The notes under the pieces: model-generated | Database searches by the model: none | What the model was told of the DNA's origin: nothing | Seen by the model: the letters and a program-made list of their open reading frames with translations, nothing else | Source: an uncultured Oscillospiraceae bacterium | GTDB taxonomy: Bacteria; Bacillota; Clostridia; Acetivibrionales; DTU013 | DNA: 64,000 nt | Assembly (NCBI GenBank): GCA_964490975.1 | Contig: CAZBEQ010000010.1 | Location: 8,837 to 72,836, forward strand | Reading direction: 5' to 3' | Shown: positions 32,479 through 52,461 of the stretch, piece by piece | Layout: each line of letters starts with the position of its first letter | Position numbering within the stretch: position 1 is the stretch's first letter | Program-made: the position numbers and the translations under genes

Positions 32479-32488
32479 CTTTTTTTAC

Positions 32489-33442: not shown

Positions 33443-33682
33443 AAAATTTCGTCTGATATATTTATATACTTCAAATCAGTAAGAAAGTCTAATTATCCTA
33501 TGACAAAATATGTACGCAGTTATCCATTTATAACATTTCATGTATAATAACACCTGCAACCATTTGGTTACAGGCACCTCTGAGCCTCACTGAACATAGC
33601 TTCTGTAAAGTTAATAAAAAGCCTTCCTGCGTGTTTTTTTTGTTAACCTGCATTCTGTCAAAATGGGAATCAGAACCCCGCC

Positions 33683-33970
33683 TTAAGTGAACAATTTTTC
33701 AGCCAAATGAGCATATTTCTGAGACATTGTTTCGGACTCATCTTTATTTTCAACATCTGCATATCCATATGTTTTCTCAAATACTTTCTTATCCTGAGTA
33801 ATGACAGATACCCTAACCGCAGCAGTGGCAGCTTGATTTTCATCTACATATTTATCAAGTTCATTCTCAAATTCAGTGATAGTTCTCCCTGATGGCAAGT
33901 TACATTCCTCACTCATTAAGCTTCTAGAATCCTCATAGTTGCAGACATACATGTACAAGTCTATTAGCAA
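33683..33970 (-). pseudogene. N-terminal fragment of a serine hydrolase / class C beta-lactamase-like protein
   Basis: VRVSVITQDKKVFEKTYGYADVENK resembles the segment preceding the SxxK motif of these enzymes. The ORF then ends after about 20 aa. Confidence 0.4.
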
Positions 33971-34092
33971 AGGCCGGTACAGATCATCTCTATATTCAAA
34001 AGATTCTCGGTCATACCGATTATACCCTCACCGCAAACACATATACCCATACTGATATTGAAGAACTCAGAAAAGCAATTAACATGATTTAA
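33928..34092 (+). pseudogene. C-terminal fragment (about 55 aa) of a tyrosine recombinase
   Basis: My translation reads ...HSCRHTCTSLLAKAGTDHLYIQKILGHTDYTLTANTYTHTDIEELRKAINMI*. It has the HxxR box and the catalytic Tyr context (YTH). An in-frame stop lies immediately upstream. Confidence 0.6.
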
Positions 34093-34212
34093 TCCTTTTT
34101 TATTTATTAATTTTGTTAGTTACCTGTTAGTTACCTACTCAAACCTCTCAAAACCTCTCGCATTTTATAGGCATTAAAAAACCGCCTGCCCTTACGGAAT
34201 AGCGGTCTTTAC

Positions 34213-34260
34213 TGGTGAGCCATCGCGGATTCGAACCGCGGACACCTTGATTAAAAGTCA
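34213..34260 (-). repeat. att site: 48-bp duplicate of the 3' half of tRNA-Lys (distal island boundary)
   Basis: TGGTGAGCCATCGCGGATTCGAACCGCGGACACCTTGATTAAAAGTCA is identical to 49641-49688. The flanks diverge on both sides. Confidence 0.88.
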
Positions 34261-34403
34261 TATACTGGCTTTCTTTATGTTGAACACTTTACATTCAGTG
34301 TGTTTGCACCTGTTGCATATGATTTTTATGTAGGTCAGAACCTATGATTATATTGTAGCATACACAAGGAAGGTTATCTACAGACCAAAGAGTATTACAA
34401 AAC

Positions 34404-35174
34404 TTACCTTGGTATTGGGTAACTTCCGATTTTAATTAAACTATTAATAGCATTTTTCATAACTTCAAAATCTGTCAAATGAATAAAGTGACCGCTGTTT
34501 GGAGCTATTATATGTTCAGCATCACTTGACAAAACAAGGTATCTTTTCATAATATCCTGCCAGAGATATTCAACCTTTTTCGCAGTTTGTTCACCCATAT
34601 TTCCATAATACTTTAGCTCTTCAATATAAAAATCACTTGAATGTGTTATAAGCCTAATTGGCATATTCTGTAGTGCTGAAGTATCAATGGCTTTAACTAC
34701 ATCCGCAGTCTCTACACCATTATGAGTTGATGCATATTCAGCAAGTGCAGTTTTATAGGTATTTTTCCTACTCGATGCCTTTAGAAGATACTCTGACGCA
34801 TCATTTAAAAAATTATAATAGTAAAAAGGTGGTGCTTTTTTCAATAAAGGTTTTATGGCAAATCCCAATCCTAGAGATGTTATAATGAGTCCAGCTTTGT
34901 ATGAAATGGTTTTGTCTACCCCGCTTTTTTTAAATTCCTCTGCTGTTAGCTTTTCTCTAAACATATTGTCAAATGGCGTGGCAGGGTCTAAAAGGAGAAG
35001 ACCTTTAACTTTGCTTGGGTATGTGTATGCATACTCCACAGCATATAACCCACCTTGTGAATGACCAATTAATATAAAATCTTTTTCTATGCCTACCAAA
35101 TTGAGTAGTCTATCCAACTCTAAAGCAATATTTCTGGGTGTTCGTTCAAGCGTAGACATAGAACTCAACTTCAT
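34404..35174 (-). CDS. Alpha/beta hydrolase, probably N-terminally truncated
   Basis: Nucleophile elbow GHSQGG and a C-terminal SGHF (catalytic His). Only about 37 aa precede the elbow, and an in-frame stop lies just upstream. Confidence 0.6.
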   Translation of the reverse strand: MKLSSMSTLERTPRNIALELDRLLNLVGIEKDFILIGHSQGGLYAVEYAYTYPSKVKGLLLLDPATPFDNMFREKLTAEEFKKSGVDKTISYKAGLIITSLGLGFAIKPLLKKAPPFYYYNFLNDASEYLLKASSRKNTYKTALAEYASTHNGVETADVVKAIDTSALQNMPIRLITHSSDFYIEELKYYGNMGEQTAKKVEYLWQDIMKRYLVLSSDAEHIIAPNSGHFIHLTDFEVMKNAINSLIKIGSYPIPR

Positions 35175-35475
35175 AAGAGTCTACAGACATGGGTAAAAGC
35201 GGGATTTTACTTTATACAGGTCTTAATGAAATAATTACATAAAATCACTTACCATTTTTGAGCATTTTTCTATAAATAAACCAATTGGAAACATTTTACT
35301 CTCAAGCTCTGAAAAATCAAAACCCACTCTGCAAATGGCTCTGGAACATGAAAACGAAGGTTACCCCTATAGAGATATAATTCTTTATAAAATAGATACT
35401 ATTGGTGAAACTGTTTATTCTTAAGCCGCACAAGAAAAAGAGAAGCGGTTAAGCTTCCCTTAAAATATTTATTCC

Positions 35476-36090
35476 CTATTTAACTTTTATCTTTGTCGGG
35501 CTTTGTAGTTTATTAAACAGATTAAAGCTGTCGGTATTGGACAAGGCTTCAACTCCATAAAGATTTACATATCTGCGGCTCATTTCCAATATACTGTGTC
35601 CCAACTGCCTTTGAAGCTGAAAGTTATTACCACCACTCAAGACCCAGTTTCGGGCAAAGGAATGTCGCAATAGATGTACCGATGTCTTGGATATACCCCT
35701 GCTTCTATTATAATCAGCAATAGCCTGTGACGCTGAATGTGGCAGAAGCTTCTTCCCGACATTATTACTGAAAAGATAATTACCACCTGAACCCTGCCTA
35801 TACCTGATATATTCCTTTAGTATGGAAATTAAAGAGGGCGGGAGCGGTAATATCTGTGCCGATTTATTTTTGGTATGAGAGAGCGTTACCACAGCACTTT
35901 CAAGGTCTACTTCCTGCATCTTGATGTTAACAACAGAACCAATTCTACAGCCTGTAGCAGTGATGAAATTAATCATTACCCAGTTCCGATACTCTGTAAA
36001 ATCACAATGCTTTGTATTAGGCTTTTTAAGGAGTATGGACAGTTCCTGCTCTGTATATATCTCCTTAAGCCAATTTAAGAAAGCAGATGT
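35476..36090 (-). pseudogene. Tyrosine recombinase lacking its N-terminal domain
   Basis: The catalytic region GCRIGS...HLLRHSFARNW...LGHSILEMSRRYVNLY is present. The open frame begins right after a TAG at 36091-36093, with no plausible full-length start. Confidence 0.65.
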
Positions 36091-36244
36091 CTAAACCTTA
36101 AGCAATTGCAGACTATTCCAAAGAAGGTATATTTAATTTTCATAGGAAAAACGGATAGAGAAATAAATGGACATTGTTAATGAAACAATACAAAATCGAA
36201 ATATCTATCAAAACAACATCGTAAGTATATAGAATGGAATTGAA

Positions 36245-36280
36245 TTTAAAAGCCGTAGGAATTAAATATCCTGCGGCTTT
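36245..36280 (-). terminator. Hairpin terminator after the small-ORF pair
   Basis: AAGCCGTAGGA / TCCTGCGGCTT imperfect stem followed by a T-tract on the minus strand. Confidence 0.55.
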
Positions 36281-36291
36281 CAGTTACTTAT

Positions 36292-36630
36292 TTAGTACCA
36301 AGTATGGTCATTTTTTACGTGTAACCACTTCGGGCATCCATAAAATTGGTACTTAAACCTTATATATATACCATTGCCCTTGTCTTTACAATATGCAACT
36401 GCCAACGGTTGAATTTCTCCCCTGGCTTCAAGTCCCCATCCATTCAAATAGTTAATAAAAAACCTATTGAAGATTTCTGCAGAATAAGCATGCATTTGGT
36501 TTAGTTTATTCATGCCGTAAATATTAGCCATGTCAATTCCATAGATTGCTTTTACATCATCTGCCGTTCTGAGTCTATAATCACCAATTCCTAGTTTTTG
36601 ATACTTTTCAGCAATTGTATTATAATCCAA
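36292..36630 (-). CDS. Hypothetical protein (112 aa)
   Basis: ORF only, with ATG and plausible coding composition. It sits 17 nt downstream of the preceding ORF. Confidence 0.5.
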   Translation of the reverse strand: MDYNTIAEKYQKLGIGDYRLRTADDVKAIYGIDMANIYGMNKLNQMHAYSAEIFNRFFINYLNGWGLEARGEIQPLAVAYCKDKGNGIYIRFKYQFYGCPKWLHVKNDHTWY

Positions 36631-36647
36631 AACTAACCTCCTTCTTA

Positions 36648-37040
36648 TTAAACTTGCATTTTTCGTTTACATTTCAGCTTTATATCCATATCTGTATTAA
36701 ATCTTACAAGTATTGCATTATAGGCTATAAACCTTATTTCATCATCATAATGGAAAATATACCTTGGATTTGTGTATTCGTCCGAATAGCCATTTAGCAA
36801 GTTATAACCCAACCTTATCAATATACGTTCCGGAAGGGTAAATTCACCTTTTTGCTTTTTATTTAGAGCGATTACTTGATTTTTTTCGAGATTGTACACT
36901 GTTTCTAACTTTGCATATAACAAATCCGTCGATGATAAAATATAAAACAACGCTTTTCGCTCGCAGTCAGAACGCTCAATTCCCGATTTCACAAGTAAAC
37001 TCACATAACGCATCTTATGTTTTTGGCTTAAAAACTGCAA
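36648..37040 (-). CDS. Hypothetical protein (130 aa; pattern reminiscent of DUF6075, unverified)
   Basis: ORF only. The N-terminal FLSQKHKMRYVSLL and C-terminal IAYNAILVRF resemble my recollection of DUF6075 proteins from Firmicutes mobile elements. Confidence 0.45.
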   Translation of the reverse strand: MQFLSQKHKMRYVSLLVKSGIERSDCERKALFYILSSTDLLYAKLETVYNLEKNQVIALNKKQKGEFTLPERILIRLGYNLLNGYSDEYTNPRYIFHYDDEIRFIAYNAILVRFNTDMDIKLKCKRKMQV

Positions 37041-37385
37041 TGATATGCTCCTTTCATTTTTTTATATTATAGTAGAGTATGTTTCAAATTATTCCATTCT
37101 GATGTTTAGTCCGACATTATTCTAAGAAATTAACAATAAGAATTTAAGAGGTATTGCTGACATATTACACCGGACGGTACGTTGGTAGGATCTGTAATTG
37201 GTGGTGAACCGATGGAGCCGAACTCACAGCAATAGATTAAACTGTGTATGACATACAAGATGAGAGCCTTGCAAAGAGACAGCAAGGTGCGATCTGATTA
37301 TGTAAATTAATGCTAGCAGAGTGGCGGAAGTATTTATGAGTGAGAAAACTTATATAGAGCTGTTCCTACATTCCTATGACAAAAT

Positions 37386-37841
37386 TTATGACTCAATATT
37401 TCGCCTCATCCTGATACATTCAGGTTTCAACATTCCAAAAAGTCTCTTCTTATAGTAGATTATGTAGTTTCCAGCTAATCCAATTTCGGCCTGCTTTACA
37501 TTTCTAAATACTTCAGTTAAAGGAACAAGCGCTTTAGCTGTATCTATTGAAACAACTTGTTTGTTCGTACATGCTTCACACTGATTTGTATTGGGATCAA
37601 TGCACTGTTCACAATACACAAAGCCGCAGCCTTCACATTTCACTGCCTTATGGCAGTTTGTACACGAATACCTCCCACACCAATTGCATTTTTTCGTATG
37701 CTCATAACATGAAGCTGCATGACATTTATCACAAGTGATAGTATCCTCATCACAAAGCGCTTCAGAACATATATGGCAATTCGTATGGTGACCATTGCAA
37801 AAGAGCTTCTTGTATTCCTTACAAGCAGTTGCATCTTCCAC
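37386..37841 (-). CDS. Cys-rich multi-zinc-ribbon protein (151 aa from GTG); start uncertain, possibly 5'-truncated
   Basis: At least 22 Cys in about 95 aa, arranged as CxxC/CxxxxC pairs, then a Cys-poor 55-aa tail. No ATG and no SD are present. The frame stays open 10 codons upstream and encodes another CxxC (NCSICDAVLC). Confidence 0.5.
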   Translation of the reverse strand: MEDATACKEYKKLFCNGHHTNCHICSEALCDEDTITCDKCHAASCYEHTKKCNWCGRYSCTNCHKAVKCEGCGFVYCEQCIDPNTNQCEACTNKQVVSIDTAKALVPLTEVFRNVKQAEIGLAGNYIIYYKKRLFGMLKPECIRMRRNIES

Positions 37842-37869
37842 GCATAATACGGCATCACATATACTGCAG

Positions 37870-37884
37870 TTCTATGTTAATACA
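37870..37884. promoter_or_regulatory. 15-bp palindrome ATACAAATTTTGTAT, related to the operator at 48031-48046
   Basis: Perfect half-sites ATACAAA/TTTGTAT. It abuts a weak -10-like TAGGAT (37883-37888, minus strand), about 30 nt upstream of the Cys-rich ORF. Confidence 0.5.
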
Positions 37885-37963
37885 AATTTTGTATCCTATT
37901 GTTAAAAAATTTGGTTGGCATTGGCAGCCTATCTTATCAAATTAATCCACATGAACATCAAAT

Positions 37964-40900
37964 CTAATTGTTAGTTCCATTCAATCCAATTCTCTTTCGA
38001 ATTTCTGAATCGGCTTTTGGAAGTGCATTGGACAACATTTTATCCGAGATTGCTACAGCATCTGCAGGAATGCGAGAATATGTAGGGCTCCACATAGCTG
38101 GATATACAAAAATATCCCTTCTGGTCCCATCTGCAACAACGTAATGCTTTATCCCATCATCTTCAATTCTAAATTGAGATTTTAACTCATTCAGTGGTGC
38201 CAATAGTTCATGTTGCCTATCGAAAGATAATGGAGAAGGAAGAACAGATCCTTCACACCAATTGAGCAGATCCAATGCTGCAAACCTGTCCAATTTATCA
38301 TGGACTCGCTGATTCCAGAAATGCATTAGACATTCGTGACAGGCACTATCACAATCGGCTCTACATTCAGACAATACCTTTTTGGTTTCTACAAAGAGCT
38401 CCCGTGTCCGATCTGCCAGCGCAGCACAATAACCAGCCCCACTTGATAGACTGTCAAACAGGAAAACATCAATATATGTTTTACCTGCTGCATATCTCAA
38501 CCGATATCCACTTTTGATATCATTAAACTCAATGTCCAGTAAACGTCCACCAGCAAGAATCATTGCTTCTGCAAGGGTTTGACCAGCAGTGCGAATCCAC
38601 ATTCCATCAGGGTTGTCATTGACCAGTAAGGGATTTATGGCAATTTCATACACTACAAGGTCAGTTAAAAACTGATGTCCCAGGTATGTATTAACAATAC
38701 CCGATGAATGGGGGCAGTTATAAATTTTATGTGGATGACGGTAAGGTTTGTCAATCTTTTTTAATTCTTTCTCATCATCTCCAGGAACAGCAGCACCACA
38801 ATCTTTACATACCATAAAGCCCTTTGATTTCGGGCCCTTATTAAGAATAATGAGCGGCTCATCTGACCTTCTTGAATACCTTAGATTTTTAAATTCGGCA
38901 GGCTTAATCATTTCAACATCAGCAGGTGTTATGGAATAACACGGGTCTTCTGCATAAGTCATTTCACTATCGGAATCAATTTCTCGAGAACTTCTACCGC
39001 CTACTGGAGCAAAGCCCCATGGCTTAAGAAGATTTTGCTCCTTAATACTTGCTTGTCCACAGAATGGACAGACATCATGGTGCAGAAGGCCCATCCAATT
39101 ACATGCTCGGTTTCCGCAGTAGAAAAGCTGTCTAAAGTAATCCTTACTACTAAAGAATGGACGTGCAGGATGCTCCTGATTACCAGCACGAAATTTCGAG
39201 TGGAAACTGTATATACCGCCCGACTTATATGTGGTCTTATTGACTACTACCAGTCTGCCGGGAGCATATTCAGTGATAGCAATATCTAAGGCTCTATCCG
39301 GCATTTGCTCTATTTCTGAGCCTTTATAGTTCTCAATATAGAAGCCAACTACATTTTTGGGGAAGGAATAGGTCGGGAAAATTCCGACTTCCAACATTAC
39401 GTCGAGAACACTTTTTTCGGAGTTCTCATCACTCCTATATTCATCTGGAAACGCTTGAACCTTTGTGAATAAATCATCCATCTCTTGGACAATGTGCGCT
39501 TTGTACTTATCAATTTCCATTACCACCCCGGCTGGCAAAAGCTTACTAAGCTCGGATGAGGAGAAATCCTTCTGAGCAATATGTTTCTTAAATTCTTCAT
39601 AGTATGAGTTAAAGAATTCGCAAACGCCAATGTCATCAGCACCTTTGCAGATGGTCCCAAAGTATTCAGAAAAACATATAACATTCAGGTGTCGCGATGT
39701 CAGCTTCATGTTGTTTACATCGATCCAGGGAAGGCGGGGTTCACCGGAAATGATTTTATCTGGGTTATAAAAATAGTAGCTATCATGAGGACGGTTATCA
39801 GTATAAGTCAGAATCGTTGAAATTGCAGCACTTCGACGTCCTGCTCGCCCAGCTCGCTGCTGATAGTTTTCCCGCATTGGAGGAATGTTACGGAGACCAA
39901 CTGCTGTCAGGGAACCGATATCAATACCGACCTCCATAGTAGTTGTACAACTAAGGACATCCACAGGCCTGTCATTGTTAACATGGACATTTTGAAACCG
40001 CATTTCGAAGTCTTCCGTCGTTGACCACGTCTTCTGTCGTTGATCCTTATGGGATAGTTGAGCCGTATGCTCTTCGGTATTGATTCTGGTCATCAGAGCC
40101 TGTGGTTCACCGTGAACCGCCGCAATTACAGGTGATCTCCAGAAGTTAACTCCTCCAAAATTCTTTACTGTCATAAGTTTCGGTATACCCACCCCGCAGT
40201 GTGCGCATTTGCCCCAAAGCATAAAAGGGAAGATTCCGCTACAGCGAGAGCATTTATACCAATCGTGATGCTCACCAAATTGCAATGTCACCATATCTAG
40301 GTTCAAATACTTGTTTGCTGTATCACTCCCTTTTGACAGGAATTTAGCAAGAGCTTCCGCTATAACCTTTATTTGTTCTCCTGTATAATTCTGTGCCTTA
40401 AGCATCCGCTCAATTCTTTGCGGTAATTTTCTGTCATCCTCAACACCCAAACGTTGATAATATGGTGTCACATCACGGCGTACCTTATCTGCAATTTCCG
40501 AGCCCAGCGCATAGGATGAGGTCATAATCTCCATACTCCACGCTGCAAACAATTTCTTGAAATCCTCTATAGAAATACCAATGTCAGCACTTTCAAATAA
40601 CTCGATAATTTCATCGAAGGTTTCATCTATGTCATAAGGCTCTAGCCAGCACATCCCAATATCCGTTAATGAACGGAAGTTACTGCACATCTGCCTGAGG
40701 AGATGCTCATAATATTGCTCTGGAATGGATTTGAACTCAGATTTCTTCGATGCCATCAAATAATTGATAGAGCCACCCTTCTTTTGAAAATACCTTCCCA
40801 TCGCTTCAAGGGCGTCGCGAAGCTCTTGCTCATTACTGCCATAAAAAAACCTTAAATTATTTTCATAGGCAACTTTAAGAAATGCCACGTACAAAAGGTT

Positions 40901-43216: not shown

Positions 43217-43217
43217 G

Positions 43218-44225
43218 TCATACCTCCTCTATCTTAACTCCCATTCCTTCAATATGAGCCTTGACATAGGGCCAAATGAAATTAGGCATATCCCATTCCC
43301 CTCTGTCAACAATCGATCTATGTGGCCACGCAAATGTTTCAAGTATGATACGTTCTTTATCTGGCAGATAGGTTTTTATTAATAGCTTCACATGGTCATC
43401 ATATTCACATTTTTCTACTGGTACCGGGCTTTGGGCAATTGAACGCAGAGCAAACATGATACGTCTGTGTTCCCCCATCTTCTGCAAGTGTGTATCTACT
43501 TTGTGATAAGAAATAGCTCCATGCTCTTCCTTTTCGAGGAAATATTCGTATGCCCCATGGTGTAGCGGATGTCGTATTAGTATGACTGAATTGAATCTTC
43601 GACCTCTTCTCGAAGTCCAACAGGTATAGTTGCTGACTGAATCCATTTCTGCTTCAAAGTACTCCGTTCTATCATCTATACAATTTCCGGCCTTCCACCA
43701 AGCATTTTTAACATACTCCCGAAACCATTCAACTGTAGATACGATAGGTGATTTCAAATCATCCTTTATGGATGGAGCAGCAAGAGCGATCCCAGTATAA
43801 ATAAATCCAGTTTCCTTAAATGAACCAATAAGCTGCCGTACTCCATAACCAAGCTCGATTTCTTGCTTGATAGCGAGTCCAATATTTGTATCATATCCGA
43901 CATTCACCAAATCGCCATTTTGAAGTAGCCGTCGTCTGATGATATCGATTGGATCATCTTCATCTTTTATCTCGAACCATGCAACCGATTGTGGGAAGCG
44001 TAACAGCATTTCATTAAGAATATGGGAACATTTTTCGAAAATATGCTTTCTGCTCACTCCCTGCGTTGTCTTATCTGTTATGGATTGATCCACCGCAGCA
44101 GCTTTGACCCAACAAGACATGGCTGAATACAATATGCGATTGATATATTGTACTTCTGATTCATTACAGAATCTCTTTATATTAAGATCTCTGGCCATTG
44201 TTGCGATCATTTCATGAACTATCAT
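43218..44225 (-). CDS. Hypothetical protein (335 aa), third gene of the helicase operon
   Basis: Long ORF. Its stop lies 1 nt before the helicase ATG. I could recognise no motif. Confidence 0.8.
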   Translation of the reverse strand: MIVHEMIATMARDLNIKRFCNESEVQYINRILYSAMSCWVKAAAVDQSITDKTTQGVSRKHIFEKCSHILNEMLLRFPQSVAWFEIKDEDDPIDIIRRRLLQNGDLVNVGYDTNIGLAIKQEIELGYGVRQLIGSFKETGFIYTGIALAAPSIKDDLKSPIVSTVEWFREYVKNAWWKAGNCIDDRTEYFEAEMDSVSNYTCWTSRRGRRFNSVILIRHPLHHGAYEYFLEKEEHGAISYHKVDTHLQKMGEHRRIMFALRSIAQSPVPVEKCEYDDHVKLLIKTYLPDKERIILETFAWPHRSIVDRGEWDMPNFIWPYVKAHIEGMGVKIEEV

Positions 44226-44236
44226 ATCATTATTCT

Positions 44237-46333
44237 CTACAGATATTGGGCAAGAAGGTCAGTATATTTTTCATTCACTCCCAGTGCCTCTAAGATATCT
44301 GTAAGCCTATCCTCCTTGTGCCTTGCTTTTGCATTAACGCATAACTGTAGTAATACAAGCCAGTCGGATTTAATATCGCTATTTATATCAACCATGAGCT
44401 TTGCACACAATACAGCCGCAGTGTTGCTTAGGATACCTGCCTCTAGCAAGGGCTTCAGTAATTTTTTCTTCTCTTCTATTTCATTCTCTTTATAAAAACG
44501 CTCAAAGGGAAATCCTTTTACTGTAGCAGATTTCATTATCTCATTCTCACAATAATCAAAAGCCAAATCTATATCAAGGAATAACGCACTGGACCATACT
44601 GCCGAAGATAGCATACCTGCATCCACACCATCAGCAGCTATCAATAGAATTTTGTTGTTACACGAATCCTTTATCGCATGGAATACATTTTCACTAAAGC
44701 CGTCAAATACACCTGTCAAATACACAACTGGGCCATAAACATTTCTAATTCTATCTGTAATACCCGCCAGATCCGTATAACCCAAAGGAATATTGACAAT
44801 AGCTGCGCCTTCTCCGCAGAAGAGAACAGATAAGCAATTAGCAATAGACAATCCGTTACTTGATACAATAAGAGGCCTGCTATTCAAAGCGCAATGTACG
44901 ATGAGTTGTGCTATTTCATAGGCTTTGACTCTATATCCACATAACGCAAGGTTCTCAGCCAATTCTTCTTCTAAACTTTCTTTATCAATGATTTCAGTAT
45001 TAGAGCCTTCAATGCACTTTGGAATGCTTGTATACGAATGAATCGGAGAGCTACTTTTCTCTGTACCTCCGATACTGCGAACCAATGAGCTGATAGCAAC
45101 GTGATGAACAATTTTATCGGAGAAACCCCTAAGTTCGTTTTCGATATCAGCATTAATCTGTTCTAGTTTTCCCTTAGCTATCATTTGGTCGTTCTGAATC
45201 TGCTGGATTTCATTTTCAAGTTCTACTCGGCGCTTATCTGCCTGTTCTGCTGAGGCAATAATCGTATCACGCCTTAGGGATTCCGTAGCGACTTCTCGAC
45301 TAAACTTTTCAATTTCTGCAAGTAGTGCTTCCTTCTCCGTATTCTTTTCAGAAAGCCATTGCCCTTTAGCAATATCAACGCATTTCTGCCTGACATCAAC
45401 TATTTTGAAAAGGTTCTGGGATATAATACGGTCAGCATCAGTATCATTCAAGAGTGTTTTGCAGATTTCATCAGCATACCTGGGTAAAACCTCTCCTAGC
45501 TGAGTCAGATCATAACCAGTAACTTGGAAGTAATTTTGCACTTGATCGTAATCACATATGATTTCTCTAATACATATTGAGATATTCTGGATATCATGAT
45601 CAGATAATTGTAACATAGCTTTCTTCTGCTTTAAGCACTTAGAAATGTAGTGAGGCACATATCTCTGTAAATCAAGTAATGGAAAATTGCATATTTTTTT
45701 AGGCAAGTCCGTGTAGCGATAAAAGTATCTGGTCGGAACCTTTCCACCGTCAGCATCTGTGATCAAAGAGTTATCTGTATCAAGTACATCCGGTTTATCT
45801 ATATAGTATTCATCTAGGTAATGGATTGAGTGCAGCATATCCGACATACTTGAATGTATCTTATAAATAGAACCTGTATGTATCATGTTCTTTTTGGAGC
45901 AATGAAGAGCTACATATTGCGACGAAATGCTGCCTATAATGATAAGCAGCTCGTCTCCCGCATTTTTATCAATCATGATCCCATCGAATAGAACCTCCCG
46001 AATCCTACTCTGATCTGTAATATCAATTGTGTTTAATTCTTGCGGAAATATCACCTCGTAAACATTGGCGGGATATCTAGTTGATATGGTTCGATTACTA
46101 CCATCCTCCTTGAATCCCCACTCACGGATCACTGCCATGTTTGCTGCGGCATCTTTAGGCAATGCTCCAATAATTCTGGGATAGGTCAAGTCCTCTTCAC
46201 TGACAGAAAAAAATGTAGCTGGTGTTAAGCTACGTGTATCGATGTCATAATCAGCAATACGAAAAAACAAATATTGACCTAACATATTCTTATTTGGATA
46301 TGTTACACACAAGGAATATCTTTTTTCAGACAT
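44237..46333 (-). CDS. Hypothetical protein (698 aa) with a central coiled coil, second gene of the helicase operon
   Basis: The ATG directly abuts the stop of the upstream gene. A heptad-rich segment is present (EKEALLAEIEKFSREV...RRVELENEIQQIQNDQMIAKGKLEQINADIENEL). No Walker A was seen. Confidence 0.8.
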   Translation of the reverse strand: MSEKRYSLCVTYPNKNMLGQYLFFRIADYDIDTRSLTPATFFSVSEEDLTYPRIIGALPKDAAANMAVIREWGFKEDGSNRTISTRYPANVYEVIFPQELNTIDITDQSRIREVLFDGIMIDKNAGDELLIIIGSISSQYVALHCSKKNMIHTGSIYKIHSSMSDMLHSIHYLDEYYIDKPDVLDTDNSLITDADGGKVPTRYFYRYTDLPKKICNFPLLDLQRYVPHYISKCLKQKKAMLQLSDHDIQNISICIREIICDYDQVQNYFQVTGYDLTQLGEVLPRYADEICKTLLNDTDADRIISQNLFKIVDVRQKCVDIAKGQWLSEKNTEKEALLAEIEKFSREVATESLRRDTIIASAEQADKRRVELENEIQQIQNDQMIAKGKLEQINADIENELRGFSDKIVHHVAISSLVRSIGGTEKSSSPIHSYTSIPKCIEGSNTEIIDKESLEEELAENLALCGYRVKAYEIAQLIVHCALNSRPLIVSSNGLSIANCLSVLFCGEGAAIVNIPLGYTDLAGITDRIRNVYGPVVYLTGVFDGFSENVFHAIKDSCNNKILLIAADGVDAGMLSSAVWSSALFLDIDLAFDYCENEIMKSATVKGFPFERFYKENEIEEKKKLLKPLLEAGILSNTAAVLCAKLMVDINSDIKSDWLVLLQLCVNAKARHKEDRLTDILEALGVNEKYTDLLAQYL

Positions 46334-47944
46334 TTATACCATCCCCCTAATATCTGCCAGGTATCTTAAGGCCCCTGTATGCATATTGCCGCAATTGATC
46401 ATATTCTTAAGTACGCTGGTAAACTCTGTATATTCATGTTCTATCATTAACTTTACATATTGGCGTACCCATCCAGGAATCGGCACTTCGGTTCCTTTCG
46501 CGCTCGATAGAAGTCCCTTCGCCAAGACATGATCTTCGAAAATATCAACAGAACTTTCTGGCTTTTTAAAAGATATACCAAATATCTTTCTTGACTCGAC
46601 ATAAATATCGAGGTTATCATGAATGTTTAAATCCGTTATACTTACTGTCTGAGCATCACGAAAAGAAATATGCTTGTATTGCTCCCTCCTATTCTTATGA
46701 TACAATTCCGCCTTGGCGTTCAATGAAAGGCTTATACCACCTTCTATTACACTAGTCGGTAGAGGCAAACAAAAATCCATTGCATTTCCTTCCTTGTCCA
46801 CTACTGAAAGCGAGTAGCAATTCTTTGATGAAGTTAATAGCCTCTTTCTATATATACTTTCAACCCCCACATATTTTCTGTCTACTGAAGCTATGATTTG
46901 GGGTCCATAAAACAGTAAGGCTACTGAATAGTTTCCACTTCCATCACTTTCTACTTGGGCAGTCGATACACTCGCTCCATTGTATGTATAAACTTTGGGA
47001 ATATCATTACCACTTATAGCAGCGCAGAATATTTTTGCCGCTTGCAGTACAGGAACCAATCCTTCGTTTTCGGCAACAGGAGGCCAGAGTGTAATCAACT
47101 CAGGAGATTTCTCAAGTAACCATACTCCAAATATGGATTTCAAGTAGTTGTTGATCCCTGCAAACCTTGACGGATTAGTGGTTGAAGCATTTATTCGAAT
47201 CACATAAACGTTATACAAATAATTATCAAGATACATAGTACCAGCAATACGATTATTGATTTCGGGATAGGACGGTGGGGGCCTTCGTGTTATCAAGAAA
47301 TACTCCTTTTCAGTCGTGATACAATCGCCACGCCTGATCTTCTTTCCACCTGATTCTGTATAGGTAAAAATAGCACTTTCATTTTGAAAGCCGTCAGCAT
47401 AATCAGACCATACCGCTCGTAGCTTCGAAGAGACTGCTGACTCAGAATAGTTTATCGAATAATTCTGCCCATTTGGCGGTATAAAGTCAACCGGAACTAG
47501 AGTTGTCTGATCCTCATAGAAGTTCGTTCGTGTTATTGGTATCAATCGTTCTGTTCTACCATGAGAAACTCCATTGCTGATCTTTATTTGAACCTTGTCT
47601 TCAAAAGCTCGTTGAAAAAGAACCTCCCCCAGAGAAGGAAAGCCAAAATATAGCTTGAATGAGCTTTCAGAATTACATTTGAGATAAAGCGGTAGACCTA
47701 CCCGTTCATAAAGAGTCAAACCCGATCTTCCATCGACCCGTTTATCGCATTCCGGTGATGCTTGCGAGCGGTTGTGATGGCGGAAATAGGCAGTAGTATC
47801 AACTCTTTCAACAAGAGTAACAGTCTCATTGCACTCAGGGCAGCTAAACCGTCCAGTACGAAAACAATGCTTATCTTGAACTATATCAGAGGCGGATACT
47901 TCGCGCTGCTTGCCGATCTCATAGTTATCGATTGCATATAGCAT
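46334..47944 (-). CDS. Hypothetical protein with an N-terminal CoiA-like zinc finger, first gene of the helicase operon
   Basis: CPECNETVTLVERVDTTAYFRHHNRSQASPEC resembles the CxxC...HF(A/R)H...C element of CoiA-type proteins. The ATG at 47942-47944 is preceded by GGGAGA. The track ORF begins at a TTG at 48001. Confidence 0.75.
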   Translation of the reverse strand: MLYAIDNYEIGKQREVSASDIVQDKHCFRTGRFSCPECNETVTLVERVDTTAYFRHHNRSQASPECDKRVDGRSGLTLYERVGLPLYLKCNSESSFKLYFGFPSLGEVLFQRAFEDKVQIKISNGVSHGRTERLIPITRTNFYEDQTTLVPVDFIPPNGQNYSINYSESAVSSKLRAVWSDYADGFQNESAIFTYTESGGKKIRRGDCITTEKEYFLITRRPPPSYPEINNRIAGTMYLDNYLYNVYVIRINASTTNPSRFAGINNYLKSIFGVWLLEKSPELITLWPPVAENEGLVPVLQAAKIFCAAISGNDIPKVYTYNGASVSTAQVESDGSGNYSVALLFYGPQIIASVDRKYVGVESIYRKRLLTSSKNCYSLSVVDKEGNAMDFCLPLPTSVIEGGISLSLNAKAELYHKNRREQYKHISFRDAQTVSITDLNIHDNLDIYVESRKIFGISFKKPESSVDIFEDHVLAKGLLSSAKGTEVPIPGWVRQYVKLMIEHEYTEFTSVLKNMINCGNMHTGALRYLADIRGMV

Positions 47945-48030
47945 TGTATGTCTCCCACAATAAAAGCTCTCAAATATAGTAACCACGATTTTTTGTATCA
48001 ATCGTAATGATTTTTACAGTAATGGTGGAA

Positions 48031-48046
48031 TTACAAATATTTGTAA
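48031..48046. promoter_or_regulatory. 16-bp perfect palindrome TTACAAATATTTGTAA (candidate operator)
   Basis: Lies 4 nt downstream of the predicted -10 of the operon promoter. Confidence 0.55.
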
Positions 48047-48050
48047 CATA

Positions 48051-48079
48051 ATTCTACCCTTCTTTCTGAAATCTTTCAA
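48051..48079 (-). promoter_or_regulatory. Candidate SigA-type promoter of the four-gene operon
   Basis: On the minus strand: TTGAAA (48074-48079), a 17-nt spacer, TAGAAT (48051-48056). Confidence 0.5.
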
Positions 48080-48522
48080 CATTCGCGCAGAATTTGTTAC
48101 AATAGATTGGTCTTGAACCAAATGAAGAGAAGTGAGTTTGCTCACTTCCCTCTATCTGGCTTTCTCCATTTCACTTTAAAATCATTATTTTTTATCTGAT
48201 ACTATAAACTATATTCTGCTACTAGCTCTATTTTTGAAGCATCCTATACACTATAAGTGCAACATCAACACGTTTTGCAGGCTTTGTACTATCTAGCTCC
48301 ATGCCTTCTGTCATATAATTTTCTTTTAAGTATTTTAGATAATTTTCCTCTGCGTTTTACTATTATATTATTACGGGTCTGCTTGTATTTTCTCATCAAC
48401 AATAAAAGCTTTTGATACTATTTTTGCCCACTGACCATTGGTTAAGGTATCCTTTGGCCCTAAATTCTCTTTGAATTAAATAACTATATAGTGATTACTT
48501 ACCTGTACCAGAATTCAGAGGT

Positions 48523-49533
48523 TTATATCTTTATCCGATCAATTAGCGATAGACTTTTATCTTTGATATGTACAATTGTACTGGCAAGATGAACATAATT
48601 GTTCAATACCGAGAAACTCTCGTGTCCAGTACTGAGTCTTAGGCTAAAAATATCTCCGCCTGCGGCGAGATACATAGTGCAATATGTATGTCTGAGTAGG
48701 TGCGGGTATATTTTTGTTATCCCTGTTTTTCCCCGTAGCCGCCGAAATAATTGTTTTATTGTTGCCTGAGTGATTGCCGTGCCATCCTCCTTCAAAAATA
48801 AGCTTTCAACCTTTACGCTGGCTGGCTCCGGCCTTTCTTGATTGACATACCTGAATATCATCTTCTGCATGTTAATTCCGAAACTTATAAATCGTTCCTT
48901 ATTACCCTTTCCCAAAACTTTCAAGGTGTTCTGATTAAGCCTAACATTAGCAAGCTTCAGTTTTGTAACTTCCTCAAGTCTGAGTCCACACTCAATCATA
49001 ATTGAGATAATTACCAGGTCTCGAAGATGGTTTGTCTTCTTGCTATCAAGATATTTTAAAATAGTATGTATTTCTTCTTCTGTTAAAATCTCAATAGCAG
49101 GTGCTGTAGCCCTCGGGAGTTTAATTTCAGATGAAACAGTCCCATTCAGATAGCCTTCATCTTCCATCCATGCCGTCCAAGCCTTTAGTGCCCTTATATA
49201 TGTTTGTACCGACTTTGAGGTTAATTGCCCATCAGATTCGATGTGTTGGGTTTTAGCCCACTTTTTAGCGGTCTTAAGGTATAGAATATACTTTTTGATT
49301 TGTTCCTTGGTAATGCTGGATGTGTCTGTATCCAAACACTGTTCTTCAAGATAGGATATAAATCTGTCAATGTTGCCTTTGTAGTACTCCACTGTGGCCT
49401 TTGAGTTCCCTCGGCAGCTTTGCTCAAACAGAAACCCATCCTTCATTTTTTCCAGACTGAATACATGAATAGCATCCTTCCCGCAATCCATAAAACCTTT
49501 TCCTGAGTTGTTTTGATTCCTTGATTTGTTCAT
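48523..49533 (-). CDS. Site-specific tyrosine integrase
   Basis: N-terminal SAM-like core-binding domain (KATVEYYKGNIDRFISYL) and a catalytic domain with GLRLEE, HLLRHTYCTMYL and LNNYVH. The ATG at 49531-49533 is preceded by GGAGG. The longer track ORF reads through two tRNA genes. Confidence 0.9.
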   Translation of the reverse strand: MNKSRNQNNSGKGFMDCGKDAIHVFSLEKMKDGFLFEQSCRGNSKATVEYYKGNIDRFISYLEEQCLDTDTSSITKEQIKKYILYLKTAKKWAKTQHIESDGQLTSKSVQTYIRALKAWTAWMEDEGYLNGTVSSEIKLPRATAPAIEILTEEEIHTILKYLDSKKTNHLRDLVIISIMIECGLRLEEVTKLKLANVRLNQNTLKVLGKGNKERFISFGINMQKMIFRYVNQERPEPASVKVESLFLKEDGTAITQATIKQLFRRLRGKTGITKIYPHLLRHTYCTMYLAAGGDIFSLRLSTGHESFSVLNNYVHLASTIVHIKDKSLSLIDRIKI

Positions 49534-49563
49534 ATTACGCCTCCGAAATTTATTCATGAGCGA

Positions 49564-49595
49564 AAAATCAAGGTGCCTCAAAATCAAGGTGCCTG
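49564..49595. repeat. Two tandem 16-nt repeats AAAATCAAGGTGCCT(C/G) between int and att
   Basis: Exact 15/16 duplication. AATCAAGGTG also occurs inverted inside the att core (tRNA anticodon stem region, about 49671-49684). Confidence 0.8.
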
Positions 49596-49607
49596 GTCCA
49601 AGACAAT

Positions 49608-49640
49608 AAAAAACCCCGTAACCTTTGAGATTACAGGGTT
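49608..49640 (-). terminator. Terminator immediately after tRNA-Lys (island-borne)
   Basis: On the minus strand: AACCCTGTAA...TTACGGGGTT stem (one G-U pair) followed by TTTTTT. Confidence 0.7.
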
Positions 49641-49716
49641 TGGTGAGCCATCGCGGATTCGAACCGCGGACACCTTGATTAAAAGTCAAGTGCTCTGCCA
49701 ACTGAGCTAATGGCCC
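49641..49716 (-). tRNA. tRNA-Lys (TTT); its 3' 48 nt form the proximal att repeat
   Basis: The reverse complement reads GGGCCATTAGCTCAGTTGGCAGAGCACTTGACTTTTAATCAAGGTGTCCGCGGTTCGAATCCGCGATGGCTCACCA. Confidence 0.92.
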
Positions 49717-49720
49717 GTAC

Positions 49721-49797
49721 TGGCTGGGATGGCTGGACTCGAACCAGCGAGATGCAGGAGTCAAAGTCCTGTGCCTTACCGGCTTGGCTACATCCCA
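49721..49797 (-). tRNA. tRNA-Gln (TTG)
   Basis: The reverse complement reads TGGGATGTAGCCAAGCCGGTAAGGCACAGGACTTTGACTCCTG...GGTTCGAGTCCAGCCATCCCAGCCA. Confidence 0.88.
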
Positions 49798-49818: not shown

Positions 49819-49847
49819 ATTATAAAGGCAAGTACGCCATTTGTCAA
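49819..49847 (-). promoter_or_regulatory. Consensus SigA promoter for the tRNA-Gln/tRNA-Lys pair
   Basis: On the minus strand: TTGACA (49842-49847), a 17-nt spacer, TATAAT (49819-49824), about 20 nt upstream of the tRNA-Gln 5' end. Confidence 0.75.
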
Positions 49848-50427
49848 GCGAAATAACTGACATCGAGGCATCACCCCGAAGCATCTCATTTGAAAAAGTA
49901 AATTCCACCTCAATTTCAAAGGTGGCGGAATTAAGTTCTGCAAATTAGGGGGAATAGGAGAAGTGGAAGTTACTTTTGCAAACATTTGTATTATGTGATA
50001 TTCGTTCACGGCACCCCGGGATGTCAAGGGCGGGTGGTTTCTGCCTGTTCATCGTAGGCAAAGCCGAAGACCCTTTACATCCATTGCACGTATATCCTTT
50101 TGTCTCCGGTCTGTTTTTACGACAGACCGGCTGCCCTTCGGCGAGGACAGAGTTTGGAACAGAGTCCCAAGGTTTTGTGTTTTTAACAATTCAAATTTCC
50201 AGAACCAATAGGGAAATCTGTCTTTCATAAAGTTATGATGTCTTTGGTGGTGCCTTTTAAGAGGTACGTATGAAGAAGAAGCCAGAGTAAAATAAGCCAT
50301 TCAAAACTGAATAAACGCAGATATAATCAACAATACGGAGTCCTGTAGAATTTACTTTTGCAAAGTGGAAATTACTATTTCAATTGACCTCACCCCGAAG
50401 CATCACCAATACAAGCACTTAGCTATT

Positions 50428-52420: not shown

Positions 52421-52461
52421 AATGATTAACTCACCTCATTAAATCAATAGCAATATAGATT

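What the first reader, a model, noticed from the sequence alone, without database searches (positions are those of the whole stretch)
34213..49688. tRNA-Lys(UUU) integration: 48-bp att duplication delimits a 15.4-kb island
- The last 48 nt of tRNA-Lys, from the anticodon loop to CCA (49641-49688), are repeated exactly at 34213-34260 in the same orientation.
- The sequence diverges immediately outside both copies.
- The intact tyrosine integrase starts about 100 bp from the tRNA 3' end.
- The element supplies its own terminator for the tRNA (49608-49640). A second terminator-like hairpin follows the orphan half-tRNA (about 34178-34212).
- This is the classical signature of integrase-mediated insertion into a tRNA 3' end.
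- The interior is visibly more AT-rich than the flanking core genes.
Basis: partly seen in the sequence, partly recalled or inferred. Interest (0 to 1): 0.7.

Follow-up and report, generated by a model that had tools for sequence, protein, structure and literature searches.

The report
Defence island inserted in tRNA-Lys gene
A 15.4-kb piece of foreign DNA carrying its own integrase and a Druantia-type anti-phage system has inserted into a lysine tRNA gene of an uncultured Clostridia-class bacterium; this is the ordinary, well-known way bacteria pick up such islands.

Summary
tRNA-Lys(UUU) lies on the minus strand at 49641-49716. Its last 48 nt (tRNA positions 29-76) recur exactly, in the same orientation, at 34213-34260. 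An intact Xer-like tyrosine integrase starts 107 nt from the tRNA end. Both terminator hairpins fold.

Twelve or more related integrases (64-91% identity) from other metagenomes all sit directly after a tRNA-Lys(UUU) gene. They share the arm layout (own terminator, 2-3 CACCTTGATT repeats, invariant CTCATGAATAA box, GGAGG) and carry different cargo. In a syntenic sister species the integrase has dS 0.49 against 1.25 to above 2 for flanking core genes, which points to horizontal exchange.

The cargo is a four-gene type I-like Druantia operon (DruB-like, divergent DruC, DruD, DruE) without DruA. The same DruA-less module recurs in two unrelated defence islands.

The island lacks the regulator and nuclease backbone of its relatives and carries two truncated genes. 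A third integrase remnant lies just outside the orphan repeat, so the site was used repeatedly.

No empty site or excised form could be found. Verdict: a real, classical tRNA-integrated defence island and a new member of a known kind, of modest interest.

The parts
49641..49716 (-). Regenerated tRNA-Lys(UUU). The 5' 28 nt come from the host; the 3' 48 nt lie inside the identity block.
   Evidence: ARAGORN; Rfam tRNA 69.8 bits
49641..49688 (-). att copy at the tRNA side (attL core), tRNA positions 29-76. It contains the anticodon stem-loop palindrome CTTGA-CTTTTAA-TCAAG, the probable crossover region.
   Evidence: Exact 48-nt repeat. The position within the tRNA was derived. The crossover location is inferred from the anticodon-centred class of Islander/Williams (PMC4383910).
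34213..34260 (-). Displaced 3' fragment of tRNA-Lys (attR core), which marks the far end of the island.
   Evidence: Exact repeat. No tRNA is called there. No 5' half sits next to it and there is no third copy.
49611..49641 (-). Element-supplied intrinsic terminator for the regenerated tRNA.
   Evidence: 14-bp stem plus U run; dG -17.7, z -4.4. The hairpin is conserved, with compensatory changes, in 7 related loci.
49562..49595 (-). Two tandem copies (16-nt period) of CACCTTGATT, the reverse complement of tRNA positions 36-45. These are candidate integrase-binding sites in the int-proximal arm.
   Evidence: The 10-mer occurs exactly four times in the 64 kb: the 2 att cores plus these 2 copies. 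Two to three copies are conserved at the same place in all 7 aligned relatives. The binding function is inferred.
49540..49560 (-). Invariant CTCATGAATAA box (49550-49560) and GGAGG Shine-Dalgarno (49540-49544) upstream of int. The box can pair with the SD.
   Evidence: Invariant in 7 loci. The alifold pairing shows no covariation, so the structure is untested.
48523..49533 (-). Intact Xer-like tyrosine integrase, 336 aa.
   Evidence: Pfam Phage_integrase 101 bits plus SAM-like N-terminal domain. NCBIfam XerC/XerD/XerA models score about 158 bits, below their cut-offs. Catalytic residues align to XerD 1a0p. Relatives at 64-91% identity are all next to tRNA-Lys.
48125..48152 (-). Terminator after int. 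The AT-rich 578-nt spacer that follows carries promoter-like sites (48079->48051 and 48001->47973) ahead of the Druantia operon.
   Evidence: Scan; spacer GC 0.32.
46334..48001 (-). DruB-like protein (555 aa from TTG; more likely 536 aa from the ATG at 47944).
   Evidence: PADLOC DruB1 1.5e-08, weak. hhalign to a canonical DruB aligns only the N-terminal CPxC...H...SPxC zinc ribbon. Orthologues occupy the same operon position in L103 and L104.
44237..46333 (-). Divergent DruC (698 aa).
   Evidence: No direct PADLOC or Pfam hit. Of 59 sampled family members, 29 hit PADLOC DruC1. The family profile against canonical P. putida DruC gives hhalign probability 86%, E 4.8e-6.
43218..44225 (-). DruD (335 aa).
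   Evidence: PADLOC DruD1 7.7e-19.
37964..43216 (-). DruE, type I (1750 aa): a DEAD/DEAH helicase with the MrfA Zn-binding (DUF1998) domain.
   Evidence: PADLOC DruE1 E=0, 1883 bits, full length. Pfam DEAD, Helicase_C and MZB.
37386..37841 (-). Cysteine-rich 151-aa ORF (many CxxC motifs), function unknown. It is not conserved next to DruE in L103 or L104.
   Evidence: No family hits; contexts.
36648..37040 (-). DUF6075 protein (130 aa).
   Evidence: Pfam DUF6075 5.8e-18.
36292..36630 (-). 112-aa element backbone gene. Its homologues follow int directly in two related islands.
   Evidence: tblastn gives 45-47% identity to L086 3845-4159 and L110 2003-2326.
35476..35976 (-). 5'-truncated second tyrosine recombinase, catalytic domain only, from a different lineage (20% identity to int).
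   Evidence: Pfam; BLASTP. A stop codon and non-coding DNA lie just upstream of the catalytic-domain start.
34404..35174 (-). N-terminally truncated alpha/beta hydrolase (256 aa).
   Evidence: Pfam matches start at profile positions of about 59-63 and later.
34176..34210 (-). Terminator hairpin directly after the displaced tRNA fragment. It lies outside the island.
   Evidence: Fold dG -16.1, z -2.3.
33928..34159 (+). Outside the island: a C-terminal remnant (54 aa) of a third tyrosine recombinase, pointing toward the orphan att (33928-34092). Next to it are two pairs of tandem repeats, GTTAGTTACCT x2 (34115-34136) and CTCAAA(A)CCTCT x2 (34138-34159). This is probably the end of an older, decayed element at the same tRNA.
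   Evidence: Translation. Pfam Phage_integrase 38.3 bits, profile positions 128-169 of 172. The stretch 33495-34212 has no counterpart in the syntenic sister genome.

Best explanation
The 15.4-kb segment 34213-49688 is a genomic island that entered the chromosome by site-specific recombination between its attP and the anticodon stem-loop region of tRNA-Lys(UUU). The reaction was catalysed by the island's own Xer-like tyrosine integrase.

The island brought a copy of tRNA positions 29-76 plus its own terminator, so the tRNA gene was regenerated at 49641-49716. The original 3' part was pushed 15.4 kb away to 34213-34260.

The cargo is a four-gene type I-like Druantia anti-phage operon (DruB-like, DruC, DruD, DruE; no DruA) with its own promoter region.

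The island belongs to a family of small tRNA-Lys(UUU)-specific elements of uncultured Clostridia-class bacteria. These share the int plus arm module (terminator, 2-3 CACCTTGATT repeats, CTCATGAATAA box) and carry variable, often defence-like, cargo. Compared with fuller relatives, this copy is reduced and may be unable to control its own excision.

Shown here: the repeat, the integrase, the terminators, the family-wide tRNA-Lys linkage, the arm conservation, the variable cargo, the low dS of int and the Druantia gene identities.

Inferred: the crossover inside the anticodon loop, integrase binding to the CACCTTGATT repeats, present-day mobility and defence activity.
For: - The 48-nt direct repeat is exact and the regenerated tRNA is intact.
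- The integrase is intact, with all catalytic residues, and starts 107 nt from the tRNA end.
- Both terminators fold.
- Integrase relatives at 64-91% identity lie directly downstream of tRNA-Lys(ttt) in every locus with upstream sequence. The chromosomal contexts differ: NadE-tRNAHis-Gln-Lys (L088-L095, L100), purA-tRNALys (L086, L108), PGI-tRNALys (L096-L099), and others (L083, L106, L110).
- The arm architecture is conserved in 7 aligned loci, with compensatory changes in the terminator stem.
- Homology between the window and the syntenic sister genome L088 covers both flanks and the tRNA-int module (90% nt), but stops 45 nt after the int stop codon. The cargo is entirely different.
- Between those two genomes, int has dS 0.49. 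ValS has 1.5, OTCase 1.25, NadE 2.2 and DUF2087 is saturated.
- Island GC is 0.392 against 0.436 for the rest of the window.
- Druantia identities: DruE1 E=0, DruD1 7.7e-19, DruB1 1.5e-08; DruC by transitive and profile evidence.
- The same B-C-D-E module sits inside defence islands L103 (next to Lamassu and a relaxase) and L104 (next to a methyl-directed REase, NERD/UvrD and EcoRII-C).
- The general principle (regenerated tDNA plus displaced fragment mark the island ends; anticodon-centred attP in 2083 of 3919 islands) comes from PMC4383910. tRNA-integrated elements carrying Druantia are described in PMC12458937.
Against: - No empty tRNA-Lys site, attP circle or attB junction could be found. 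Exact attB patterns gave 0 hits in genome and metagenome collections. The only contigs of the same organism break inside the repeat.
- None of the relatives shows a second att copy within the 10-11 kb or less available. In L088 the far flank is reached without one.
- Three related species carry an integrase of this family at the same syntenic locus, so long residence at the site is possible.
- No excisionase, regulator, replication or transfer gene was recognised in the island. The HTH pair, 70-aa and PD-(D/E)xK backbone genes of relatives are absent.
- Two internal genes are truncated.
- DruA, which is part of canonical type I Druantia, is absent.
- A perfect 48-nt repeat is weak evidence for recency. 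At 1% divergence, about 60% of such repeats would still be perfect.
Confidence: 0.85

Rival explanations
1. The island is real in origin but is now an immobilised remnant. The integrase and its arm are long-term residents of this tRNA-Lys locus in the lineage. Cargo turns over by recombination or deletion rather than by excision and integration of whole elements.
For: - Three related species have an integrase of this family at the same ValS-NadE-tRNAHis-Gln-Lys locus.
- The sister genome L088 has no second att copy although the conserved far flank is reached.
- The window island lacks the regulator and nuclease backbone found in relatives and contains truncated genes.
- No excisionase was recognised.
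Against: - The 48-nt repeat in the window is perfect and the integrase is intact.
- dS of int between window and L088 is about one third or less of that of flanking core genes, which points to more recent horizontal exchange of the module.
- The same integrase family occurs at tRNA-Lys genes in unrelated chromosomal contexts.
Confidence: 0.3
2. The 15.4 kb is a composite of two elements that integrated one after the other into the same tRNA-Lys. The newer one is int-Druantia-Cys151-DUF6075-p112. The older one is integrase fragment-hydrolase fragment. The middle att copy and the 5' half of the older integrase were lost in one deletion. The present repeats therefore bracket a tandem array, not a single element.
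For: - A second, 5'-truncated integrase at 35476-35976 has the same orientation as int. It lies exactly where the integrase of an older, tRNA-distal element would lie.
- A third integrase remnant just beyond the orphan att shows that the site was used repeatedly.
- Tandem arrays at tDNAs are known (PMC4383910).
Against: - No trace of a middle att copy was found.
- The fragment is only 20% identical to int, so it belongs to another lineage whose target is unknown.
- Truncated genes can equally be junk cargo carried by a single element.
Confidence: 0.3
3. The arrangement is an artefact of metagenome assembly. A circular or unrelated contig was wrongly threaded into the chromosome through a shared 48-nt tRNA segment.
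For: The source is a metagenome-assembled contig. In the k=31 Logan assembly of SRR8925805 the island is a separate 15,438-nt contig, and both flanks break inside the repeat. That graph cannot tell integrated from excised-plus-empty.
Against: - An 84-kb NCBI contig carries the integrated form. Assemblers with k above 48 need reads that span the junctions.
- Twelve independent contigs from other samples show the same tRNA-Lys-terminator-repeats-int junction.
- Even if the element were excised, it would still be the same tRNA-Lys-specific element.
Confidence: 0.03
4. The 48-nt copy is an unrelated tRNA-Lys pseudogene or a chance segmental duplication, and the integrase is nearby by coincidence.
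For: None specific. tRNA gene fragments do occur in genomes.
Against: - The copy begins at the anticodon stem and ends exactly at CCA, in the same orientation, with no 5' half.
- The integrase family is consistently linked to tRNA-Lys.
- The segment between the copies is absent from the syntenic sister genome.
Confidence: 0.02

Closest known systems
Islander-type tDNA genomic islands with anticodon-centred attP (Williams 2002; Hudson, Lau & Williams 2015, PMC4383910)
   Same: - A tyrosine integrase is present.
- The tRNA gene is split and regenerated by island sequence.
- A displaced 3' fragment in the same orientation marks the far end.
- The identity block runs from the anticodon stem to the 3' end.
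- Size is in the usual range.
- There are signs of repeated use of the same tDNA.
   Different: - The integrase is a short Xer-like protein with no recognisable arm-binding N-terminal domain.
- Its closest phage integrase is 34% identical or less.
- The arm carries tandem copies of a core-like half-site.
tRNA-Phe/tRNA-Leu mobile elements of E. coli carrying Zorya II-Druantia III-ARMADA II (Bell et al. 2025 preprint, PMC12458937)
   Same: Defence cargo that includes a Druantia system is carried by an integrase-bearing element. The element is flanked by direct repeats, one of them in the 3' end of a tRNA gene.
   Different: Those elements are larger and prophage-like, with excisionase and HUH rolling-circle endonuclease genes and 16-20-nt repeats. 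Here the repeat is 48 nt, the host is a Clostridia-class bacterium, no excisionase or replication gene was found, and the cargo is type I-like Druantia.
Type I Druantia (druABCDE; Doron et al. 2018, from my own knowledge; example on P. putida plasmid pKF715A)
   Same: - DruE1 matches over its full length and DruD1 is detected.
- The DruB N-terminal zinc ribbon is present.
- DruC is recognisable by profile comparison.
- Gene order (B-C-D-E) and gene sizes are the same.
   Different: - There is no DruA (DUF4338) gene in the island or in the two other loci with this module.
- DruB and DruC are too divergent for the PADLOC models to call confidently.
Chromosomal XerC/XerD/XerA recombinases
   Same: The fold family, SAM-like core-binding domain and catalytic residues match.
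   Different: - Scores (about 158 bits) are far below the NCBIfam equivalog cut-offs of 220-335.
- The gene lies next to a tRNA att site with variable cargo, not at a housekeeping locus.
- It evolves as a mobile gene.

Membership tests
tDNA-integrated genomic island (Islander criteria) | An intact tRNA gene plus a displaced fragment of the same tRNA in the same orientation on the same replicon | tested here: met
   tRNA-Lys at 49641-49716(-). Its 3' 48 nt are repeated exactly at 34213-34260 in the same orientation.
tDNA-integrated genomic island (Islander criteria) | A tyrosine integrase gene inside the interval | tested here: met
   Int at 48523-49533(-): Pfam Phage_integrase 101 bits, with the catalytic residues R, K, HxxR, H and Y.
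tDNA-integrated genomic island (Islander criteria) | The interval is foreign: absent from related genomes, or an empty site or excised circle is detectable | tested here: inconclusive
   The syntenic sister genome L088 lacks all of the cargo but has its own int and different cargo at the site. No empty site was found. int dS is lower than in the flanks.
tDNA-integrated genomic island (Islander criteria) | Anticodon-centred (class A) attachment site | tested here: met
   The identity block starts at tRNA position 29 in the anticodon stem and runs to CCA. The crossover point itself was not determined.
Type I Druantia | DruE: a large DEAD/DEAH helicase with the DUF1998/MZB domain, type I clade | tested here: met
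   PADLOC DruE1 E=0, 1883 bits, profile positions 2-1773 of 1776. Pfam DEAD, Helicase_C and MZB.
Type I Druantia | DruD | tested here: met
   PADLOC DruD1 7.7e-19. Orthologues in L103 and L104 score 1e-20 to 9e-26.
Type I Druantia | DruC | tested here: met
   There is no direct hit. Of 59 sampled family members, 29 hit DruC1. The family profile against canonical DruC gives hhalign 86%, E 4.8e-6 over 150 columns. This is a divergent member.
Type I Druantia | DruB | tested here: inconclusive
   PADLOC DruB1 1.5e-08 for the window protein only, with none for the L103 and L104 orthologues. hhalign aligns only the N-terminal zinc ribbon. Position and size fit.
Type I Druantia | DruA (DUF4338) | tested here: not met
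   No DruA or DUF4338 hit for any island ORF. It is also absent upstream of the module in L103 and L104. The canonical locus L105 has DruA annotated.
Type I Druantia | Protects against phage | not testable with these tools
   This needs plaque assays.
Prophage or phage satellite | Phage structural, packaging, replication or lysis genes | tested here: not met
   PHROGs hits are integrase only. There is no DNA match in phage records and no relative in IMG/VR.
Integrative conjugative or mobilisable element | Relaxase, oriT, coupling protein or T4SS genes | tested here: not met
   No such Pfam or NCBIfam hits in the island.
Housekeeping XerC/XerD | Score above the NCBIfam equivalog cut-off | tested here: not met
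   158.6 bits against cut-offs of 335 (XerC), 330 (XerD) and 220 (XerA).

The most novel reading that the evidence does not exclude
The island represents an undescribed family of minimal tRNA-Lys(UUU)-specific elements of uncultured Clostridia. Their short Xer-like integrase has no arm-binding domain and would use tandem copies of a core-like half-site (CACCTTGATT) in the arm for directionality or autoregulation. The conserved int-arm module would act as a docking platform where defence cargo is swapped. One such cargo would be a four-gene, DruA-less Druantia that is a functional, self-sufficient variant of type I.
Probability: 0.3. Interest if true: 0.5.

Novelty: new member of a known kind. 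Interest (0 to 1): 0.3.

Why it matters
It is a clean, precisely bounded example of how an anti-phage system travels: a small integrase cassette targets a tRNA gene and repairs it. The boundaries, the conserved arm motifs and the set of related loci give a ready-made system for testing a simple Xer-like integrase with a tRNA anticodon-stem target. The recurrent DruB-C-D-E module without DruA offers a natural experiment on what DruA contributes to type I Druantia, whose mechanism is still unknown. None of this changes current concepts.

Tried and rejected
1. Empty-site search. An exact attB pattern (11 nt of left flank + 48 nt + 11 nt of the tRNA 5' part) gave 0 hits in genome contigs and metagenome contigs.
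2. Synteny through the RsgA-like gene 52462-53472 in 185k species genomes. The best relative is only 71% identical, and none of the 28 top loci has a tRNA nearby. That gene block is itself an insertion relative to the sister species.
3. Exact-protein look-ups of the flanking genes return only Logan contigs of the same sample, and these end inside the repeat. They cannot distinguish the integrated from the excised state because k=31 is shorter than 48.
4. The 48-mer and the integrase have no match in IMG/VR. The island has no DNA match in phage or plasmid records.
5. A second att copy was searched for in all related loci with seeded and Smith-Waterman scans and none was found. The native distal arm of the family therefore remains unknown.
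6. Tandem integration of two elements of the same family was rejected as such, because the inner integrase fragment is only 20% identical to int. A mixed-family composite remains a rival.
7. A shallow (3-sequence) profile against canonical DruC and DruB gave no support. A deeper profile was needed.
8. The word-index search for homologues of the 112-aa ORF found only itself. Its homologues were found by tblastn in fetched loci.
10. Rfam finds only the two tRNAs in 33-51 kb.

Full report
**Observation**

ARAGORN finds tRNA-Lys(ttt) on the minus strand at 49641-49716, 4 nt downstream of tRNA-Gln at 49721-49797. Rfam agrees. The repeat finder reports one long repeat in 30-54 kb: an exact 48-nt direct repeat, 34213-34260 = 49641-49688. 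The neighbouring bases differ on both sides.

In tRNA numbering the repeat covers positions 29-76. It therefore starts 3 bp inside the 5' strand of the anticodon stem and ends at the encoded CCA. A Smith-Waterman scan of the whole window finds no third copy above the level of shuffled queries.

- The integrase ATG is at 49533, behind a GGAGG, 107 nt from the tRNA end.
- A 14-bp-stem terminator abuts the tRNA at 49611-49641 (dG -17.7, z -4.4).
- A second hairpin with a U run follows the orphan fragment at 34176-34210 (dG -16.1, z -2.3).
- The AT-richness claim is half right. Island GC is 0.392 against 0.436 elsewhere, lower than any other 15.4-kb segment (minimum 0.413). However, druE is 0.425 and the 5 kb left of the island is just as AT-rich at 0.395.

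**What is inside**

Read in the direction of the tRNA, the island contains the following.
- int, 336 aa. It has Pfam Phage_integrase plus a SAM-like domain. Its XerC/XerD/XerA-like scores of about 158 bits fall below the NCBIfam cut-offs. All catalytic residues align to XerD.
- A terminator and an AT-rich 578-nt spacer with promoter-like sites.
- Four co-directional, tightly packed genes of 536/555, 698, 335 and 1750 aa.
  - The 1750-aa protein matches PADLOC DruE1 over its full length (E=0).
  - The 335-aa protein matches DruD1 (7.7e-19).
  - The first protein matches DruB1 weakly (1.5e-08).
  - The 698-aa protein matches nothing directly.
- A Cys-rich 151-aa ORF, a DUF6075 protein and a 112-aa ORF.
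- A 5'-truncated second tyrosine recombinase. It is 20% identical to int, and a stop codon lies just upstream of its catalytic domain.
- An N-terminally truncated alpha/beta hydrolase.

No phage, conjugation, replication or excisionase genes were recognised.

**The DruC question**

A profile search with the 698-aa protein and its two word-index relatives found 380 relatives among 1.84 billion representatives. Of 59 sampled members, 29 hit PADLOC DruC1. The 59-sequence profile aligns to the DruC of a canonical druABCDE locus on P. putida pKF715A with hhalign probability 86%, E 4.8e-6. The 698-aa protein is therefore a divergent DruC.

DruA is absent from the island. It is also absent from the only two other loci that carry close relatives of this module:
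- L103: relaxase, LmuA, LmuB, then genes of 571, 699, 340 and 1752 aa.
- L104: methyl-directed REase, then genes of 518, 697, 345 and 1893 aa, then NERD/UvrD, Dcm and EcoRII-C.

The cargo is best called a type I-like Druantia B-C-D-E module without DruA. It fails one defining feature of type I, and its activity is untested.

**Is it an integrative element? Comparative evidence**

Relatives of int are rare. There are none in IMG/VR, five in JGI metagenome contigs and 56 in the 5.8-billion-protein collection. Wherever upstream sequence exists, a tRNA-Lys(ttt) gene lies immediately upstream. The chromosomal settings differ:
- NadE-tRNAHis-tRNAGln-tRNALys (L088-L095, L100)
- purA-tRNALys (L086, L108)
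- PGI-tRNALys (L096-L099)
- others (L083, L084, L106, L110)

Aligning the stretch from the tRNA end to the int ATG in seven loci shows a conserved architecture:
- a terminator hairpin whose stem changes by compensatory substitutions;
- two or three direct copies of (R)RCACCTTGAYT;
- an invariant CTCATGAATAA box;
- TTCGGAGG, then ATG.

CACCTTGATT is the reverse complement of tRNA positions 36-45. In the 64-kb window the 10-mer occurs exactly four times: the two att cores and the two arm copies. I infer that these are integrase-binding sites resembling the core half-site. That would suit a short Xer-like protein with no separate arm-binding domain. Binding has not been shown.

**Sister genome**

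L088 is an 88-kb scaffold, and seven further contigs belong to the same population at 99% nt identity. It is syntenic with the window on both sides: ValS, NadE and tRNA-His on one side; the 78-aa protein, DUF2087 and OTCase on the other. It carries a 91%-identical int behind tRNA-Lys.

Homology stops 45 nt after the int stop codon. Instead of Druantia, L088 has CBM_2 surface-type proteins. The Nei-Gojobori figures are given below.

| Gene | dS (window vs L088) |
|---|---|
| int | 0.49 |
| OTCase | 1.25 |
| ValS | 1.5 |
| NadE | 2.2 |
| DUF2087 | saturated |

dN of int (0.040) is like that of ValS (0.043). The int module therefore shares a much more recent ancestor than the two chromosomes, which means it moved horizontally.

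The tRNA-Lys genes of the two species differ by two compensatory T-stem pairs, yet the two copies inside the window are identical.

**Other relatives**

Other relatives carry other cargo:
- PD-(D/E)xK plus an SMC-like ATPase with weak LmuB similarity (L096)
- HATPase_c/DUF4325 and DUF5677 (L106)
- an HNH-like protein and a 623-aa protein (L083)
- ClpP-like and cREC_REC proteins (L087)
- an ArgS paralogue (L100, L110)

Several relatives share a backbone that the window island lacks: an HTH_3 pair, a protein of about 70 aa, a PDDEXK_1 protein of 310-334 aa and a protein of about 100 aa. The window island shares only int and the 112-aa ORF, whose homologues follow int directly in L086 and L110. 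The window copy is thus a reduced derivative.

**History of the site**

A further surprise lies just outside the island, next to the orphan att and its hairpin:
- two pairs of tandem repeats (34115-34136 and 34138-34159);
- on the plus strand, pointing toward the att, the last 54 codons of a third tyrosine recombinase at 33928-34092. These score Pfam Phage_integrase 38.3 bits over profile positions 128-169 of 172, and the upstream frames are full of stops.

The 718 nt between the conserved 78-aa gene and the orphan att have no counterpart in L088. The simplest reading is that an older element had already used this tRNA-Lys and decayed before the present island arrived. The hairpin after the orphan fragment would then be that element's terminator rather than the host's. 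Together with the inner integrase fragment, this makes tRNA-Lys a repeatedly used site. It also leaves open that the 15.4 kb is a composite whose middle att was deleted.

**What could not be shown**

- No empty site, attP or attB was found.
- The organism has no close relative among 185k species genomes; the best RsgA match is 71%.
- The only same-sample contigs come from a k=31 assembly that breaks inside the 48-nt repeat. The island is a separate 15,438-nt contig. That graph cannot tell the integrated state from the excised one.
- None of the relatives shows its distal att within the 10-11 kb or less available, and L088 has lost it.
- Present-day mobility is therefore open. A perfect 48-nt repeat is only weak evidence of recency.

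**Comparison with what is known**

The arrangement is the textbook tDNA island. The regenerated target and the displaced fragment mark the ends, and anticodon-centred attP sites account for 2083 of 3919 Islander islands (PMC4383910). Elements integrated in tRNA genes and carrying Druantia with other defence systems have been described in E. coli (PMC12458937).

What is new here is limited to three points:
- the particular integrase family and its conserved arm motifs;
- its strict link to tRNA-Lys(UUU) in uncultured Clostridia-class bacteria;
- the DruA-less four-gene Druantia module.

**Verdict**

This is a new member of a known kind, of modest interest.

Noticed in passing
window 33928-34159: A third tyrosine-recombinase remnant (C-terminal 54 aa, plus strand) lies just outside the island, next to the orphan att. 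Beside it are two pairs of tandem repeats (GTTAGTTACCT x2, CTCAAA(A)CCTCT x2). This is probably the decayed end of an older element at the same tRNA.
   Followed up: partly
window 49860-54285: A 4.4-kb block lies between tRNA-His and tRNA-Gln: DUF3795/Peptidase_S51 (290 aa), a GNAT-like protein (317 aa) and an RsgA-like GTPase (336 aa). It is absent from the syntenic sister genome L088, where the two tRNAs are about 200 nt apart. It is a second indel at this tRNA cluster, with no integrase.
   Followed up: partly
window 31630-33061: The TetR regulator and the Rce1-like/CPBP membrane protease are absent from sister genome L088, which has an SNF-family transporter at the equivalent place. The whole 30-34 kb left flank is AT-rich (GC 0.395).
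   Followed up: partly
window 31256-31409 and 31492-31645: A 154-nt direct repeat (90% identity, 236-nt spacing) lies in the intergenic region between the DUF2087 gene and the Rce1-like gene.
   Followed up: no
window 49540-49560 (and A3 columns 109-133): The invariant CTCATGAATAA box upstream of int can pair with the GGAG of the Shine-Dalgarno sequence in all seven related loci. This is a possible translational control hairpin. It cannot be tested by covariation because nothing varies.
   Followed up: partly
window 37386-37841: A 151-aa ORF directly after druE has about 28 cysteines arranged in many CxxC pairs. It has no hit in Pfam, PADLOC, NCBIfam or PHROGs and is not conserved next to DruE in L103 or L104.
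   Followed up: no
window 49819-49847 (minus strand): A perfect 12/12 sigma-70 consensus promoter (TTGACA-17-TATAAT) lies upstream of the tRNA-Gln-tRNA-Lys pair.
   Followed up: no
L100 11162-12850; L110 2394-4082: Two related islands (int 64-65% identical) carry a full-length arginyl-tRNA synthetase gene right after int and the p112-like gene. L100 also has a tRNA-synt_1c/DUF2726 fusion. These may be aminoacyl-tRNA synthetase paralogues carried as island cargo.
   Followed up: no
L087 302-4467: A disrupted integrase of this family is followed by a ClpP-like protease and a cREC_REC (cyclic-phosphate processing receiver) protein. This may be conflict-system cargo.
   Followed up: no
L103 401-18379: On a 1.2-Mb contig, the same DruA-less DruB-C-D-E module lies directly after a Lamassu pair (LmuA 3e-78, LmuB 6.5e-182) and a relaxase gene. 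The module therefore also travels on a different kind of mobile element.
   Followed up: partly
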